From Chiloscyllium plagiosum (taxonomy: Eukaryota): a stretch of DNA of 51,726 bases. The DNA is taken from NCBI RefSeq assembly GCF_004010195.1, contig NC_057719.1:6782846-6834571 (forward strand). Reading direction: 5' to 3'. The translations under genes were made by a program, and so were the position numbers. The notes beneath the pieces were generated by a model that was not told the DNA's origin, ran no database searches, and saw only the letters and a program-made list of their open reading frames with translations. Of the stretch, positions 5,781 through 26,789 are shown piece by piece (position 1 is the stretch's first letter; each line of letters opens with the position of its first letter).

Positions 5781-6573
5781 GGTGATGATTTCGAATTGAC
5801 AATATCACCATTAAATCAGGTTCAACCTGACACGAGAAACAATGTGTGGGGATGCTGTCTCACATCCAAATCATTTAATAACAGTGTTAATTTGTGGAAT
5901 TCTTTATTGCAGACGGCTGTCAAGGCTGGATTGTGGAGCAGGTTTTTAATCAGTAAGGATATCAAGGGTATAAGAAAAAGGCAGGAAATTGGAGTTGAAT
6001 CAGCCATAATCTCATTGAATGGCAGAGCAGATTTGATAGGCTGAATGGTCTTATAAAATGAACCCAAAGTTTAAAGTGCAATTTTTAATGTAGACAAAGA
6101 TGCAACCTATAGTTTTAAGAACACTTTACATTTACTGCTCAAGAATTGGAGTCTTAGAACTCATTGTCTCCGTTGTAAGAATTTGAATTTGGAGCCATGC
6201 AGTGAAAAGCAGGTACTTTTGCCTGGCCCTAATTTTGTAACTACTAGTCCCTAACCATTAATTACTGTATAGCTGCACCGCCAAAGAGTATTGCTATTTT
6301 GCCTCTTCAATGAATATATCTGCTGTCTTGGATTTAAACTCATTGAATTGTAATTGCTACATTGGCAAGATTAAATACAAGTCGAGATGTGTATGGAAAC
6401 AATCAGTGAGCCTCTTTTCATAGCAAAGACTGCAGATGCATGCCAAAGACTACAATACGTTGTCACAATCTCAACATTATTGTGCTCTGGGTAGAACTAA
6501 AGTGGGAACTAAGGAAAATCCATAGTGTCCTTCTATTTCTGACATACATGGTTTTAAACAAACAGCACCTAAT

Positions 6574-6716
6574 AAAGTTAAAAATCACACAACACCAGGT
6601 TATAGTCCAACAGGTTTAATTGGAAGCACACTTCCAATTAAACCTGTTGGACTATAACCTGGTGTTGTGTGATTTTTAACTTTGTACACCCCAGTCCAAC
6701 ACCGGCACCTCCAAAT
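6574..6716. mobile_element. Palindromic PLE family B mini-insertion
   Basis: Perfect 53-bp inverted arms (6574-6626 and 6631-6683), tail of about 33 nt on the right arm, 15-bp duplication cagcacctaataaag (6563-6577, 6717-6731). Confidence 0.85.
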
Positions 6717-6731
6717 CAGCACCTAATAAAG

Positions 6732-8445: not shown

Positions 8446-9262
8446 TATGTGGAGGTGTTAGTGTTGGACCGGAGTGCACTAAGTTAAAAATTACAACACC
8501 AGGTTATAATCCAACAGGTTTATTTGAAAGTACTTGCTTTCGGAGCACTGCTCCTTCATCAGGTAGTGTGGAGCAGGATCAGAAGACATAGAATTTATAG
8601 CAAAAGATCACAGTGCCATGCATGCAGCTGATACAATACATTGAACAAATCTAGATTGCTGTTAAGTCTTTCATCTTTTAGAATGGTTGCAGGTTTCAGT
8701 TTATTAATATGTAAATCCCAGAACTTCTTTCAAGTCAGATTCTCTGGATAAGATTTTATAAAAAAAGGTGATATCTCAGCTGAGACAATGCATTAAAGTT
8801 GCAAGGTTAGAGTCTGTAGGCATCCCAATCTTGAGTTAGACTGGTTCTATTTCCAAAGTAGGAATTTATAAAATGTTACAAGCATTGACTGCCTGCAGAT
8901 TGTGTGCTTTTGAACAAAATAGAATGTATCCGCAATTTCAATTCTGCAAATGCAAATTCACCGCAGAGACTTAGATGCGTGCATGAGAGAGAGAAAGACA
9001 GAGAGAGAGAAAGAAAAGAGTATTTGTGTGAGAGAGCATTTGCGTGCATGTGAGAGTGTGTGTTTGCGTGTGTGCACCTCTTGGGGGGGGGGGTGTGGCT
9101 GAGAGAGCGTGTGTATGAGAGAAAGTCTGCGTGAGTGTGCGAGTCCATAAGAATACACATGTATGTGTATGTGTGTGTTTGAGAGTGTACAGTGTAGTGG
9201 GGTCACCTGTAGTGTGACATGAACCCAAGGTCCCGGTTGAGGCCATCCTCATGGATTCGGTA
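8446..9262 (-). mobile_element. PLE family B 3' region (ORF C-terminus, CA-rich UTR, hammerhead-like core, tail)
   Basis: ORF end HEDGLNRDLGFMSHYR; inverted homolog of 10550-11314; core at about 8531-8566. Confidence 0.8.
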
Positions 9263-9278
9263 CCATGTAAGCTAGCCT

Positions 9279-9355
9279 TTCCTGATGAAGGGCTTATGCC
9301 CGAAACGTTGATTCTCCTGCTCCTCGGATGCTGCCTGACCTGCTATGCTTTTTCT
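9279..9355 (+). mobile_element. PLE family A fragment
   Basis: ttcCTGATGAaGGGCttatGCCCGAAAcgttgattctcc. Confidence 0.75.
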
Positions 9356-10400: not shown

Positions 10401-11314
10401 CCAGATGGACAGTTGTGTTCCCTCCCAGTCTGGGAACATTTCAGTGATCAGGGACATTTGGCCTTGGATCTTTGGGTGACCATCCTCCAAGGCGGACTTT
10501 GGGATACGCAACACCACACACTGGCCAACCTGAGGCTGATAGCTAAGTTCAGACCCCATGAAGATGGCCTCAACTGGGACCTTGGGTTCATGTCATAATA
10601 TAGGTGACCCCACTACACTATGCACTCTCACATACATACACTTACACACTCACACAGACCCTCTCTCATACACACACACACACCTCCCACACTCTCTCCC
10701 ATGCACACACCGTGTCGCAGGCTTATAGTCTATCCCCCTTGCACTTTACCAAGCACGTGCACACACACAGTCTCTCACACGCACACTCACATGCATGCAC
10801 ACACACACTCTCTCTCTCATGCATACATGCAAATATAAGTCTATGGAGTGAATTTGTATTTGTTGAATATTTGCAGATACATTCTATTTTGCTCAAAAAG
10901 CACACAATCTGCAGGCAGTCAATCCATGTAATATTTTATAAGTTCCTACTTTGGAAATAGAACCAGTATGACTCAAGATTGGTATACATATAGACTCTAA
11001 CCTCACACCTTTAATGTACCGTCTCAGCTGAGATGTCACCTGTTTTTATAAAATCTAAGTTATCTTGTGAATGTGACTTGAAAGAAGTTTTGGGATTTAC
11101 ATATTAATATACCGAAAACTGCAACACATTCTAAAAGACAAAGACTTAACAGCAATCTAGGTTTGTTCAATACAGTATATCAAATCAGTTGCATGACACT
11201 GTAAAATCTTTTGCGATAAATTCTGTGTCTTATGATCCTGCTCCACAGATACCTGATAAAGAAGCAGTGCTCCGAAAGCTATTGTTTCCAAATGAACCCG
11301 TTGGACTATAACCT
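10401..11314 (+). mobile_element. PLE family B 3' region
   Basis: ORF 10395-10598 SLPVWEHFS...LIAKFRPHEDGLNWDLGFMS (C-terminal end of GIY-YIG region); ends in a degenerate hammerhead core and ttggactataacct. Confidence 0.8.
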
Positions 11315-12290
11315 TGATTTGGAGATACTGGTGTTGGACTGGGATGTACAAAGTTAAAAATCACAGAACACCAGGTTTAATTGGAAGCACTAACTTTCGG
11401 AGCGCTGTTCCTTCATCAGGTGGTTGTGAAGTACACAGTTGTAAGACACAGAATTTATAGCTAAAGCTTACAGTGTGATGTAACTGAAATTATACATTGA
11501 AAAATACCTTGATTGTTTATTAAGTCTCTCATCTGTTAGAATGACCATTTAGTTTCACTTCTTTCATATGTAAATCACAAAACTTTTTTAAAAAGTTACA
11601 TTCTCAGGTTAACTGTAACAATTGGTGTCAGTCAGATAAGATGTTGAAGGTGTTAGCCCCCTCTGTTCCCTGTCTGTGCCAATGTAACTCTGCAAGTACA
11701 AATTCACCCCACAAACGTATATGTGTATGTGTGTTTTTGTGTGTGTCCCCGTCTGGGGTAGGGGATTGAGAGTGTGAGAGAGTGTGTATATGTGAGTGTA
11801 AAGTGTCTAAGTCTGTGAGAGAATCATGTATGTGTGTGGGAGTGTGTATAGTGCACTGGTGGTCACCTGTAGTGTGGCATGAACCCAAGGTGCCGGTTGA
11901 GGCCCTCCCTATGGGTACAGAACTTAGCTATCAGCCTCTGCTTGGCCACTTTTCCCTGCTGCCTGTCCTGAAGTCCGGCCTTGGAGGATGGTCACCCGAA
12001 GATCTGAGGTCGATTGTCCTGGACCACTGAAGTATTCCTGAAGAAGGGCTCATGCCCGAAACGTCGATTCTCCTGCTCCTTGGATGCTGCCTGACCTGCT
12101 GCACTTTTCCAGCAACACATTTTCAGCTCTGATCTCCAGCATCTACAGTCCTCACTTTCTCCACTGAAGTGTTCCCCAACTGGGAGGGAACACTTCTGTC
12201 TGCTGATTGTTGTGCGGTGCCCATTCATCCATTGCCTTAGCCTTTGCTCAGTTTCACCAATACACCATGCCTCAGGGCATTCTTGCCTGC
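11315..12290 (-). mobile_element. PLE family B 3' region, interrupted by a family A insert
   Basis: Tail, core at about 11388-11423, ORF fragment MNGHRTTISRQKCSLPVGEHFS. Confidence 0.8.
12034..12162 (+). mobile_element. Mini PLE family A insert
   Basis: Full 129-bp unit; TSD ccactgaagt (12024-12033, 12161-12170). Confidence 0.85.
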
Positions 12291-12297
12291 AGCATCC

Positions 12298-13009
12298 TTA
12301 CTTGCAGAGTTACATTGTACTTTGCTCAAAAACTGCAAGAATGCATGAGAGACTCTGTTAACTCACTTTTTAGATTAGAATCAGTCTAAACATTATGGCA
12401 CAGACAGGGAACGCAGGGGGCTAACACCTTCAACATCTTAACATCTTATCTGGCTGTCATCAATTGTTACAGTTAACCTGAGAAGGTAACTTTTAAGGAG
12501 AAAGTGAGGTCTGCAGATGCTGGAGATCAAAGTTGAAACTTTATTGCTGGAACAGCACAGCAGGTCAGGCAGCATCCAGGGAACAGGAGATTCGACGTTT
12601 CGGGCACAGGCCCTTCTTCAGGAATTCTTTAGGCATTCCTGAAGAAGGGCCTGTGCCCGAAACGTCGAATCTCCTGTTCCCTGGATGCTGCCTGACCTGC
12701 TGTGCTGTTCCAGCAATAAAGTTTCAACCAAGGTAACTTTTAAAGAAGTTTTGTGATTTACATATGAAAGAAGTGAAACTATCATGGTCATTCTAACACG
12801 AGAGACTTAACAAACAATCAAGGTATTTTACATCACACTGTAAACTTTTGCTATAAATTCTCTCTTACAATTGTATACTCCACAACTACCTGATGAAGGA
12901 GCGGCGCTCAGAAAGCTAGTGCTTCCAGTTAAACCTGTTGGACTACAACCTGGTGTTGTGTGATTTTTAACTTTGCCCACCCCAGACCATCACCAGCTCC
13001 TCCACATCA
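12298..13009 (+). mobile_element. PLE family B 3' region, inverted partner of 11315-11700, abutting the CpG island
   Basis: Core CTGATGAaGGAGCggcGCTCaGAAAgcta at 12890-12918, then tail ending ccacatca. Confidence 0.8.
12497..12728. mobile_element. Palindromic PLE family A insertion (young)
   Basis: Near-perfect arms of about 94 bp around tctttaggc; 35-nt tail on the left arm; TSD aaggtaacttttaa (12483-12496, 12730-12743). Confidence 0.88.
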
Positions 13010-13420
13010 CGTGTGCACCCTACGCAGCCTGGAGCGGCACCTGAGGACGTCATGCGTCATGGCGTAGGGACGCGCCGTGCGTGCGTAAACCAGCGCCAAG
13101 ATGGCGGCGGGGACCAGCCATTGGTTGCTGTTACGCTATCAGGCGCCATTCCTACCGCCCGAATTCCTCCCGCCGGACCGAAGGGCCTGGAGGCCGCTCT
13201 GTGGGCGTCAGCAGGTCGAAAAACACCGACTTTACCTCAGGAATTTATTGGCCGGGCCGAGCTGCGGGGGGTTGGCTGGAGGGGGAGGCATTTCAGCGGC
13301 TGTCGTTGTTCGTTCGAGGGGCCCATGGGGACCTGAGGCGGAGGGAGGTAATGCTCGGCCGGATTGTCTCCTTGGCGACGGCCAGGGAGATCGTGGCGTT
13401 ATTGAGCGATGTTTCCCCCC
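13010..13420. promoter_or_regulatory. CpG-island promoter of an unidentified gene
   Basis: Sharp GC and CpG enrichment; CRE-like gacgtca (13046-13052) and tgcgtca; YY1 motif CAAGATGGCGGC (13097-13108); two reverse CCAAT boxes (13120, 13247); repeat-free sequence downstream. Confidence 0.8.
13345..13353 (+). other. Candidate first-exon splice donor GAG|GTAATG
   Basis: Donor-like site near the 3' edge of the CpG island, followed by a transition to T-rich intron-like sequence. Confidence 0.45.
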
Positions 13421-18351: not shown

Positions 18352-19918
18352 GTTTTGGATGTAAGTTTGCTCGCTGAGCTGGAAGGTTCATTTCCAGATG
18401 TTTTGTCACCCTATTAGGTAACATCTTCAGTGGACCTCCAGGAAAAGCACTGCTGATGATTCCTGTTTTTATATGTTTGGGTTTCTTTGAGTTGGTGATG
18501 TCATTTCCTGTTTTTCTCAGGGGTTGGTAGATGGGGTCTAACTCGATGTGTTTGTTGATGAGAATTTCGGTTGGATTGCCATGCTTCTAGGAATTTTCGT
18601 GCGTGTCTCTGTTTTGCTTGCCTTAGGATGGGTGTATTGACCCAGTCGAAGTGGTGTCCTTCCTCATTCGTATGTAAGGATACTAGTGAGAGAGGGTCAT
18701 GTCGTTTTGTGGCTAGTTGATGTTCGTGTATCCTGGTGGCTAGTCTTCTGCCTGTTTGTCCAATGTAGTGTTTGTTACAATCCTTGCACAGTAGTTTGTA
18801 AATGACATTAGCTTTGCTTGTTGTCTGTATAGGGTCTTTCAAGTTCATTATCTGGTGTTTTAGTGTGTTGGTGGGCTTCTGGGCTACCATGATGCCAAGG
18901 GGTCTGAGTCGTCTGGCAGTCATTTCTGAGATGTCTTTGATGTAGGGCAGAGTGGCTAGGATTTCTGGACATGTTTTGTCTGCTTGTTTGGGTTTGTTGC
19001 TGAGAAATTGGCAGACTTTGTTCATAGGGTACCCATTCTTTTTGAATACACGGTATAGGTGATTTTTCTCTGCTTTGCGAAGTTCCTCTGTGCCGCAGTG
19101 TGTGTGTTGGCTCGTTGAAATAATGTTCTGATGCAGCTTCGTTTATGGATGTTGGGATGTTGCTTCTGTAGTTCAGTATTTGGTCCGTATGTGGCATTTT
19201 CCTGTAGACACTAGTTTGAAGTTCTCCATTGGCTGTTTGCTCTACTGTGACATCTAGGACTGGCAGTTTGTTGTTTTCCTCCGCTTTAGCGAATTTTATG
19301 CCAGTAAGGGTATTATTGATGGTCTTGAAGGTTTCCTCTAATTTGTTTCGTTTAGTGATGACAAAGGTCATCACCCACCAACACACTAAAACAGCAGCTA
19401 ATGAACTTGAAAGACCCTGTACAAAGAACAAGCAAAACTAATATCATTTACAAAATACCATGCAAGAACTGTAACAAACACTACATTGGGCCACCAGGAT
19501 ACATGAACATCAACTAGCCACAAAAAGACATGACCCACTCTCACTAGTATCTTTACATACAGATGAGGAAGGACACCACTTTGACTGGGCCAACACATCC
19601 ATCCTTGGACAAGTCAAACAGAGACACGCACGAGAATTCCTAGAAGCATGGCATTCCAACCGGAACACACTCAACAAACTTAGAGTTAGACCCCATCTAC
19701 AGCACCCTGAGAAAAAGAACAGGAAATGACATCACCAATCCAAAGAAACCCAAACATTTGAATAGAAAGCAGGAATCATCAGCAGTGCGTTGCCCAGAGG
19801 CCCGCTGAAGATGTTACCTAGCAGGGTAATGAAATGTCTGGAAATGAACCTACTAGCTCAGTGAGCAAACCTACTTCCAGAACTTCAACCTGAGCTACAA
19901 ATCTTCTCAAAATTCGCT
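18352..19918. mobile_element. PLE family C insertion: about 1 kb inverted arm (18352-19367, minus) plus direct arm (19368-19918, plus)
   Basis: GIY-YIG motif NVIYKLLCKDCNKHYIGQTGRRLATRIHEH and RT thumb LPVLDVTV..TSVYRK; degenerate hammerhead cores at about 18392-18431 and 19802-19841; TSD aacccagttt (18346-18355, 19922-19931). Confidence 0.88.
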
Positions 19919-23224: not shown

Positions 23225-23670
23225 TAGTTTTAAAACAGCAACTAATGAACTTGAAAGACCTTATGCAGGCAACAAGCAAAACTAATGTCATTTACAAAAT
23301 ACCTTGCAAGAACTGTAACAAACATTACATTGGACAAACAGGCAGGAAACTAGCCACAAAATGACATGACCCCCTCTTGCTAGTATCCTTACATACAAAT
23401 GAGGATAACTTTGGGACAACACATCCATCCTAGGACAAGCCAAACAGAGACGTGCACAAGAATACCTAGATGAATGACATTCCAACTGGAACTCTATCAA
23501 CAAACACATTGATTCGGGTCCCATTTACCAGTCCCTGAAAAAAAGAACAGGAAATGACCTCACCATAGGAAATGACCACCAACCCTAGGGAACTCTCAAT
23601 AGAAAGTGGGCTACACCACCAGTGCTTCATTCAGAGGTTCACTGAAGATGTTACCTAGTATGGTGATGGA
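23225..23670 (+). mobile_element. PLE family C fragment (GIY-YIG to hammerhead remnant)
   Basis: NVIYKIPCKNCNKHYIGQTGRKLAT; ctgaagatgttacctagtatggtgat at about 23642. Confidence 0.8.
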
Positions 23671-23672
23671 AT

Positions 23673-23855
23673 GTGAATTGGCCATACTAAATTGCTAATT
23701 GCCATACTAAATTCAGGTGAATTGGCCATGCTAAATTGCCCGTAGTGTTAGGTAAGGGGTAAATGTAGGGGTATGGGTGGGTTTCGCTTCGGCGGGTCGG
23801 TGTGGACTTGTTGGGCCGAAGGGCCTGTTTCCACACTGTAATCTAATCTAATCTA
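23673..23855 (+). mobile_element. 5'-truncated HE1-type SINE
   Basis: Matches the 3' half of 30314-30634; (aatct)n tail. Confidence 0.8.
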
Positions 23856-25893: not shown

Positions 25894-25954
25894 ATGGAAA
25901 TGTGTTGCTGGAAAAGCGCAGCAGGTCAGGCAGCATCTAGGGAACAGGAGAATC
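25894..25954 (-). mobile_element. Single-arm PLE family A fragment starting at the predicted hammerhead cleavage site
   Basis: Reverse complement starts gattctcctgttccc; TSD tgagggg (25887-25893, 25955-25961). Confidence 0.75.
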
Positions 25955-26590: not shown

Positions 26591-26789
26591 AAGTTAAAAA
26601 TCTCAACACCAGGTTATAATCCAACAGGTTTAATTGGAAGCACTAGCTTTCGGAGTGTCGCTCCTTCATCAGGTGGAGCAGTGCTCCGACAGCTGGTGTG
26701 CTTCCAGTTGAACCTGTTGGACTATAACCTGGTGGTGTGATTTTTAACTTTGTATACCCCAGTTCAACACTGGCATCTCCAAATCAAGG
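26591..26789. mobile_element. Palindromic PLE family B mini-insertion
   Basis: Inverted arms, right-hand tail, TSD ctcaccatctaa (26581-26592, 26790-26801). Confidence 0.83.
26641..26675 (-). ncRNA. Minimal hammerhead ribozyme motif, family B
   Basis: Minus strand cac-CTGATGA-a-GGAG-cgaca-CTCC-GAAA-gcta^gtg (stem I cac/gtg, palindromic AGCT stem III). Confidence 0.7.

What the first reader, a model, noticed from the sequence alone, without database searches (positions are those of the whole stretch)
6574..6716. Family B palindrome folds back exactly at its predicted hammerhead cut site
Seen: intact family B reads ...GAAAGCTA^GTGCTTCC. The inverted arm ends ggaagcac at 6629 (GTGCTTCC on the minus strand) and does not continue into tagctttc. 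The other arm starts 3 nt further in. The insert therefore lacks everything upstream of the cut. This independently matches the family A case at 25894 in a family with a different sequence.
Basis: partly seen in the sequence, partly recalled or inferred. Interest (0 to 1): 0.75.

Follow-up and report, generated by a model that had tools for sequence, protein, structure and literature searches.

The report
Penelope stub ending at ribozyme cut
This 145-base mirror-image insert is a recent stub of a Penelope-like jumping gene in a known layout; one of its two arms stops at the base where the element's small ribozyme is predicted to cut, which likely records a self-cut RNA template, but most sister copies stop elsewhere, so it is an exception and not the rule.

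Summary
The sequence claim holds. Between two copies of a 15-bp target duplication lie a tail-less inverted arm (6574-6629) ending exactly at +1 of the predicted hammerhead cut, one extra A, and a tailed arm from +4 to +91; the arms are identical over 53 bp. This is the published layout of endonuclease-bearing Penelope-like elements; longer family-B copies end in a shark Penelope-type endonuclease ORF. It is not a simple fold-back: the one-sided tail and short target matches at both outer ends point to two cDNAs, one from each cut strand. The generalisation fails: 1 of 10 two-armed inserts in the window turns at the cut; most short arms stop about 30 nt upstream, likely at the transcription start. 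Two of 25 short arms end at +1 (rough chance 0.004-0.03, uncorrected). In reads from two species +1 is the top inner 5' end, but a subfamily with a 2-nt duplication at the cut confounds the count. Odds that this arm copied self-cut RNA: about 55%. The scan noted such cut-site ends before, in this genome and others.

The parts
6563..6577 (+). Left copy of the 15-bp target-site duplication; its last 4 nt (6574-6577) also match the element at +53..+56
6574..6629 (-). Tail-less inverted arm, element +1..+56; its 5' end is at +1 of the predicted hammerhead cut (6631 if the template was the GT-duplication variant)
6627..6630 (.). 4-nt loop at the centre (CACA); 6630 is an untemplated A or part of the GT-variant template
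   Evidence: GT variant
6631..6683 (+). Direct arm, element +4..+56, identical to the inverted arm over 53 bp
6684..6718 (+). 35-nt one-sided tail (+57..+91) between the two likely priming sites; the last 2 nt overlap the target
   Evidence: 3' ends pile at +53..+56 and +91
6717..6731 (+). Right copy of the 15-bp target-site duplication
12890..12921 (+). Intact family B hammerhead motif used as reference (cut after 12918); stem II has one mismatch in this copy
26641..26672 (-). Intact family B hammerhead motif (4-bp stem II, AGCU helix III, 3-bp stem I; +1 = 26643)
10401..10595 (+). C-terminal ORF remnant upstream of a long family B copy; ties family B to shark Penelope-like endonuclease proteins
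25895..25954 (-). Family A single-arm insert whose 5' end is at +1 of its own predicted cut, inside a 7-bp duplication

Best explanation
The insert is a recent two-armed stub of a Penelope-like retrotransposon, likely made when both strands of a 15-nt staggered cut primed reverse transcription on the element's RNA, and its left arm likely ran off an RNA whose 5' end had been made by the element's own hammerhead ribozyme. Shown: the duplication, the two arms, the one-sided tail, the short target matches at both outer ends, and the +1 end. Inferred: the top-strand 3' end paired at +53..+56 and copied back to +1; the bottom-strand 3' end paired at +90/+91; the first cDNA's end then turned on a 4-nt loop or switched template at +4 and copied the second cDNA through the tail, which sealed the join. 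On this view the +4 start reflects the join, not a second stop. Most sister copies likely ran off uncut RNA at a start near -31 to -37.
For: Layout; same layout in PMC8557442 and PMC3846280 (passages). A purified Penelope-like protein nicks and extends both strands and starts at two RNA sites that bound the tail (PMC11167929, main text). Family-wide 3' ends pile at +53..+56 (359 and 531 contigs) and +91 (516 and 602) in two DNA runs. No self-complementary word is kept at the join, although AGCT (-5) and CTAG (-3) were available. 2 of 25 short arms, in two families of different sequence, end at exactly +1; among the 7 arms outside the -28..-34 cluster the rough chance is 0.004 (exact) to 0.03 (within 1 nt). 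+1 is the largest inner 5'-side loose end in run X2 (85 contigs) and in X13, another species (77). One further joint in X1 lands on +1 (table 5c; kind not given).
Against: The +1 pile has as its majority sequence a 2-nt insertion plus an intact ribozyme, so alignment clipping of the GT subfamily explains part or all of it. My rough unmixing leaves 16-43 (X2) and 31-50 (X13) other contigs, against unlisted neighbours below 37 and 52: no clear excess. None of the 9 head-to-head joints shown (15 of 49 rows shown) has a +1 end; 5 of 9 have an end at -31..-37. In RNA run X21 depth shows no step at the cut and no place where many molecules begin; 230 reads have a loose 5' end at -31, while +1 is not among the 6 rows shown (smallest 128). 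In PMC11167929 uncut RNA was the main substrate in vitro and no RNA-seq reads began at the cut. Stem I is only 3 bp, Rfam gave no hit, and cleavage of this motif is untested. The window was picked by a reader looking for such coincidences, so the chance figures are too low.
Confidence: 0.55

Rival explanations
1. Same two-strand priming, but on uncut RNA: the cDNA stopped early or was trimmed before joining, and the +1 end is a coincidence.
For: Family B junction ends in reads are spread (-25, -13, -4, +5, +6, +11, +12, +16, +18, +30) and in the window (-21, -20, +42). Uncut RNA dominates in X21 and in vitro (PMC11167929). The window was chosen after the fact.
Against: Two exact +1 ends in two families within 52 kb; family A has no other stop between its -29..-34 cluster and +1 (the -8 is an internal deletion). 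+1 tops the list in two species, though confounded.
Confidence: 0.25
2. The two cDNAs from uncut RNA paired through the self-complementary AGCT or CTAG next to the cut (or the palindrome was once longer), and the hairpin tip was later trimmed; the A at 6630 would be a left-over of -1.
For: The palindromic helix III lies directly 5' of the cut in both families, so pairing there would draw joins to this spot without cleavage. Junction palindromes are described (PMC3846280, passages).
Against: Needs two separate small losses in an insert whose arms have no other difference. It cannot explain the single-arm family A copy at 25954.
Confidence: 0.12
3. One cDNA from self-cut RNA folded back on itself and made the whole palindrome.
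For: Identical arms and a 4-nt loop; with the GT-variant template the last C could pair with G6626. Self-priming was proposed for such junctions in PMC3846280.
Against: The strand that carries +1 was primed at +56, so copying itself cannot yield the +57..+91 tail. The right end has its own 2-nt target match at the family-wide +91 end. No stable hairpin is predicted at the cDNA end. The arms of the 26591 insert differ at 9 of 67 columns, including the GT variant, which fits two templates or age. Fold-back survives only as the joining step.
Confidence: 0.05
4. Assembly collapse of a longer palindrome centre.
For: Not checked with long reads; such structures trouble short-read assemblies (PMC8557442).
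Against: The insert is 145 bp with 53-bp arms, an asymmetric centre, an intact duplication and unique flanks in the window. Ten longer palindromes in the window and the nine other two-armed inserts keep their centres.
Confidence: 0.03

Closest known systems
Insertions of endonuclease-bearing Penelope-like elements with inverted pLTR, one-sided 30-40 bp tail and target duplication (PMC8557442, PMC3846280, passages; PMC2377424, passages)
   Same: Inverted 5'-truncated arm, tail on one end only, target duplication, small junction palindrome; ORF end like shark Neptune/Nematis-type proteins.
   Different: No ORF and no ribozyme left; both arms start at or after the predicted cut. The passages I saw do not map junctions against the cut site.
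Poseidon element of Anolis carolinensis studied in vitro (PMC11167929; parts 1-2 of 4 of the text, figures and most supplements not seen)
   Same: Both strands nicked and extended; two reverse-transcription starts bound the tail; hammerhead upstream of them.
   Different: There uncut RNA was the main substrate and no RNA ends at the cut were found; here a genomic end lies at the cut. The family B ATG in the core meets an in-frame stop at the cut, unlike the Anolis ORF.
Minimal type I hammerheads of metazoan Penelope-like elements (PMC4209133; parts 1-2 of 4)
   Same: CUGANGA/GAAA/UH core, bulged base before stem II, palindromic helix III for dimers.
   Different: Stem I is 3 bp and stem II 4 bp (shorter than the Schistosoma examples); that paper states there is no in vivo evidence of cleavage.
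R2 retrotransposons, whose HDV-like ribozyme sets the 5' junction (PMC3774820, abstract only)
   Same: Works like it in the proposed minority route: the ribozyme cut fixes the template's 5' end, which is recorded in the genomic junction.
   Different: Different ribozyme and element class; in R2 it is the rule, here at most a minority.
LINE-1 twin priming (recalled, not read; one search gave no paper applying it to Penelope in its 3 listings)
   Same: Both target strands prime on the RNA and give an inverted 5' part.
   Different: Here both arms copy the same short stretch from two fixed start sites, giving a palindrome and a tail.

Membership tests
Endonuclease-bearing Penelope-like element insertion | Inverted 5'-truncated copy adjacent to a direct copy | tested here: met
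   Arms 6574-6629 (-) and 6631-6718 (+)
Endonuclease-bearing Penelope-like element insertion | 30-40 bp tail on one end only | tested here: met
   35 nt, 6684-6718; family-wide ends at +53..+56 and +91
Endonuclease-bearing Penelope-like element insertion | Target-site duplication | tested here: met
   15 bp
Endonuclease-bearing Penelope-like element insertion | Hammerhead motif in the terminal repeat of the family | tested here: met
   Intact family B copies; absent from this insert itself
Endonuclease-bearing Penelope-like element insertion | Parent ORF with telomerase-like RT and C-terminal GIY-YIG endonuclease | tested here: inconclusive
   A 65-aa remnant upstream of a family B copy is 66-69% identical to the C-terminus of 4 shark proteins, which show a GIY-YIG-like motif by eye; Pfam gave no GIY-YIG or RT hit on P0001-P0003 or the remnant; no full ORF seen
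Neptune/Nematis clade | CX2-5CxxC linker before the endonuclease | tested here: met
   Present by eye in homologs P0001-P0003 (definition); not seen in window DNA; no tree built
Minimal type I hammerhead | Conserved core, stem II with bulged base, palindromic helix III, stem I | tested here: met
   Copy 26672-: stem II 4 bp, AGCT, stem I 3 bp; Rfam gave 0 hits in the window; minimum-energy folds of single copies did not give the hammerhead
Minimal type I hammerhead | Self-cleavage 3' of the UH | not testable with these tools
   Cut site is predicted from the core; no step at +1 in one polyA RNA run
Ribozyme-defined 5' junction (R2-like) | Genomic 5' ends enriched at the cut base across the family | tested here: inconclusive
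   2 of 25 short arms; top loose end in two species but confounded by the GT subfamily; 0 of 9 joints shown

The most novel reading that the evidence does not exclude
Genomic copies of shark Penelope-like elements record two template starts, the capped start near -31 to -37 and the hammerhead cut at +1, so these minimal ribozymes do cut in the germ line and the cut RNA is used for insertion. The start and a working poly(A) site at +27..+30 bracket the ribozyme, so one transcript would carry exactly two hammerheads for dimer cleavage while only its 5' repeat carries the priming sites, which would explain the glut of 90-125-nt stubs.
Probability: 0.5. Interest if true: 0.65.

Novelty: new member of a known kind. 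Interest (0 to 1): 0.4.

Why it matters
The role of hammerheads in endonuclease-bearing Penelope-like elements is stated to be unclear (PMC8557442), and the one in vitro study found cleavage dispensable and no RNA ends at the cut (PMC11167929). Genomic ends at +1 would be a fossil record of cleavage in the germ line, testable by counting junctions in any shark assembly. One locus cannot carry that claim; as an object the insert is an ordinary stub of a very abundant family (37,119 and 45,877 contigs laid).

Tried and rejected
Scans for more copies: 0 in metagenome contigs, 0 in viral contigs, 1 in prokaryote genomes, a bare 20-nt match with about 1 expected by chance. Rfam: 0 hits. No RNA holder listed for the locus; run X22 laid 0 reads, no test. 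My early idea that family B is a direct homolog of the Anolis Poseidon element (ATG 26 nt before the cut) was dropped: the frame stops at the cut and homologs carry the Neptune/Nematis linker. The +1 peak was not accepted as proof because of the GT subfamily. Which subfamily the 6574 copy belongs to could not be told. PMC5785218 is not held; supplementary figure 2 of PMC11167929 is a picture without text and may show genomic ends near the cut that bear on novelty. Literature searches for a junction at the cut; none of the listings or passages read reports it, but subscription papers are missing.

Full report
Setting. The window is 41% GC, without N, and rich in repeats with CR1-type RT remnants. 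Three repeat families carry a hammerhead core. Homologs of a family B ORF remnant are shark proteins, so the source is likely a cartilaginous fish. No whole genome was available.

The observation. Numbering from the predicted cut (+1 = first base after CUA), the insert has a minus-strand arm at 6574-6629 covering +56..+1, an A at 6630, and a plus-strand arm at 6631-6718 covering +4..+91 (the script's majority sequence is 2 nt shorter, so it prints 54 and 89). The arms show 0 differences in 53 bp and fold as one hairpin with a 4-nt loop. A 15-bp duplication flanks the insert at 6563-6577 and 6717-6731 (chance about 6e-6). Its last 4 nt on the left and first 2 nt on the right also match the element's ends. 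The flanks have no second copy in the window.

What it is. Long family B copies extend about 700 nt upstream to an ORF end that is 66-69% identical to the C-terminus of four shark proteins. Three of these show a CX4CxxC linker and a GIY-YIG-like motif by eye, the Neptune/Nematis layout (PMC8557442 passages). Pfam did not confirm the domain in them. An inverted 5'-truncated copy, a one-sided 30-40 bp tail and a duplication are the typical Penelope structure. The ribozyme motif fits the minimal hammerheads of PMC4209133, with a short 3-bp stem I and no Rfam hit. The family is very abundant: 37,119 and 45,877 contigs of two DNA runs lay on one copy.

How it likely formed. A 15-bp duplication with target matches at both outer ends implies two 3' overhangs, each able to prime (inference). 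Family-wide 3' ends pile at +53..+56 and at +91, matching the two arms here and the two in vitro start sites that bound the tail in PMC11167929, where both strands were nicked and extended. The strand that carries +1 is the one primed at +56. If it had only folded back it would have copied itself to +56 and then the flank, never the tail. A second cDNA is therefore needed, and fold-back can only be the joining step. The +4 start is then a product of the join and not a second stop. A subfamily with GT duplicated at the cut exists (411 of about 2,380 RNA reads; 5.5% of depth in X2 and 0.15% in X13; window copy 26675+). With that template the centre needs no untemplated base, and the left arm ends at +1 or +2 of that variant. 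Either reading puts the end within one base of the cut.

Is +1 special? In the window I scored 30 arms, 14 of family B and 16 of family A. Five family B arms run on beyond -73. The nine short ones end at -31, -31, -25, -21, -20, -9, +1, +4 and +42; by eye -9 is a clip in a diverged stem II (true end about -28). Family A: 14 of 16 at -29..-34, one at -8 (internal deletion, true end about -29), one at +1 (25954, single arm, 7-bp duplication). So 2 of 25 short arms end at +1, and 1 of 10 two-armed inserts (4 B, 6 A) turns at the cut.

Read-level tests. (intact copy 12790-13040; runs X1, X2, X21, X22): 15 of 49 joints were shown, 9 of them head-to-head; 5 of the 9 have an end at -31..-37 and none at +1. 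One of 12 rows shown in table 5c (of 44) lands on +1. In RNA run X21, 230 reads have a loose 5' end at -31, +1 is not among the six rows shown, depth has no step at the cut, and no place with many starts was found. (52-nt reference, -12..+40; runs X2 and X13, two species; 12 of 86 rows shown): +1 is the largest inner 5'-side loose end in both (85 and 77 contigs). Its majority sequence, however, is a 2-nt insertion followed by the intact ribozyme, the GT subfamily clipped by the aligner. Agreement of 0.59 and 0.53 lies between pure-family rows (0.72-0.82) and pure-flank rows (0.34-0.38), but the family-like rows itself score 0.50-0.64. A rough unmixing leaves 16-43 and 31-50 other contigs, against unlisted neighbours below 37 and 52. 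The test is inconclusive.

The main stop. The cluster at -29..-37 lies just 5' of the ribozyme. In family B a TATAAA sits at -66, about 30 nt upstream, so I infer a transcription start; earlier notes of the scan reached the same reading and I reuse their wording of a capped start without a test of my own. In X21, 839 and 526 reads pass into poly(A) behind +27 and +30, downstream of the ATTAAA or AATAAA at +10 (one sample, starts not counted). If start and poly(A) site bracket the ribozyme, a transcript carries two hammerheads and has priming sites only in its 5' repeat; cDNAs then run off at the cap or, if cut, at +1 (inference).

Against cleavage: uncut RNA was the main in vitro substrate and no RNA-seq ends at the cut were found in Anolis; self-complementary words flank the cut in both families and could draw joins there, although none is kept at this join.

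Comparison and novelty. The architecture is in print. A genomic end at the hammerhead cut was not found in my searches or in the passages read; figures and most supplements of PMC11167929, and PMC5785218, were not seen. The closest working analogy is R2, whose ribozyme cut sets the 5' junction (PMC3774820, abstract). The scan has noted cut-site ends before, in this genome and others, with verdicts on both sides; these are unchecked notes and I do not count them as evidence.

Verdict. Observation confirmed; interpretation partly supported. A real, young, two-armed Penelope-like stub (about 90% sure), likely from two primed cDNAs, with about 55% odds that its left arm copied self-cut RNA. Interest 0.4.

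Noticed in passing
window:12928-12948 (family B +10..+30), run X21: 839 and 526 RNA reads pass into poly(A) right behind +27 and +30, downstream of an ATTAAA/AATAAA and before a GU-rich stretch: the repeat seems to carry a working sense-strand poly(A) site, upstream of both priming sites.
   Followed up: partly
family B cut site (window 12918/12919; copy 26675-26786): A subfamily has 2 nt (GT, less often AT) inserted exactly at the predicted cut; 5.5% of depth in one species, 0.15% in another. Could be slippage or a scar of cutting and rejoining.
   Followed up: partly
window:26581-26801: Two-armed family B insert in one 12-bp duplication whose arms differ at 9 of 67 columns, including the GT variant and stem II: perhaps two different RNA templates in one event.
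   Followed up: partly
family A arms across the window: 14 of 16 5' ends fall in -29..-34, several with a G just before; likely a transcription start.
   Followed up: partly
window:18351-19884 and 23231-23674: A third Penelope-like family with a GIY-YIG remnant (Pfam E 0.0012), long inverted arms and its own hammerhead core at 19805.
   Followed up: no
window:11189-11483, 9254-9352, 12024-12170, 12483-12743: Nested insertions: family B into family B at the TATAACC motif, and family A inserts inside family B copies.
   Followed up: no
table 5c (12972-12974 to 12929-12933): Joints from the inner priming site back to about +8..+15, one at depth 99.7: recurrent short tandem units of the +8..+55 stretch.
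   Followed up: no
proteins P0001 and P0004: Annotated shark proteins in which the Penelope-like endonuclease end is fused to a pyrin domain or to ankyrin repeats; may be gene-model artefacts or exonised copies.
   Followed up: no
window:9885-10355: Degenerate tandem array of about 40-nt units.
   Followed up: no
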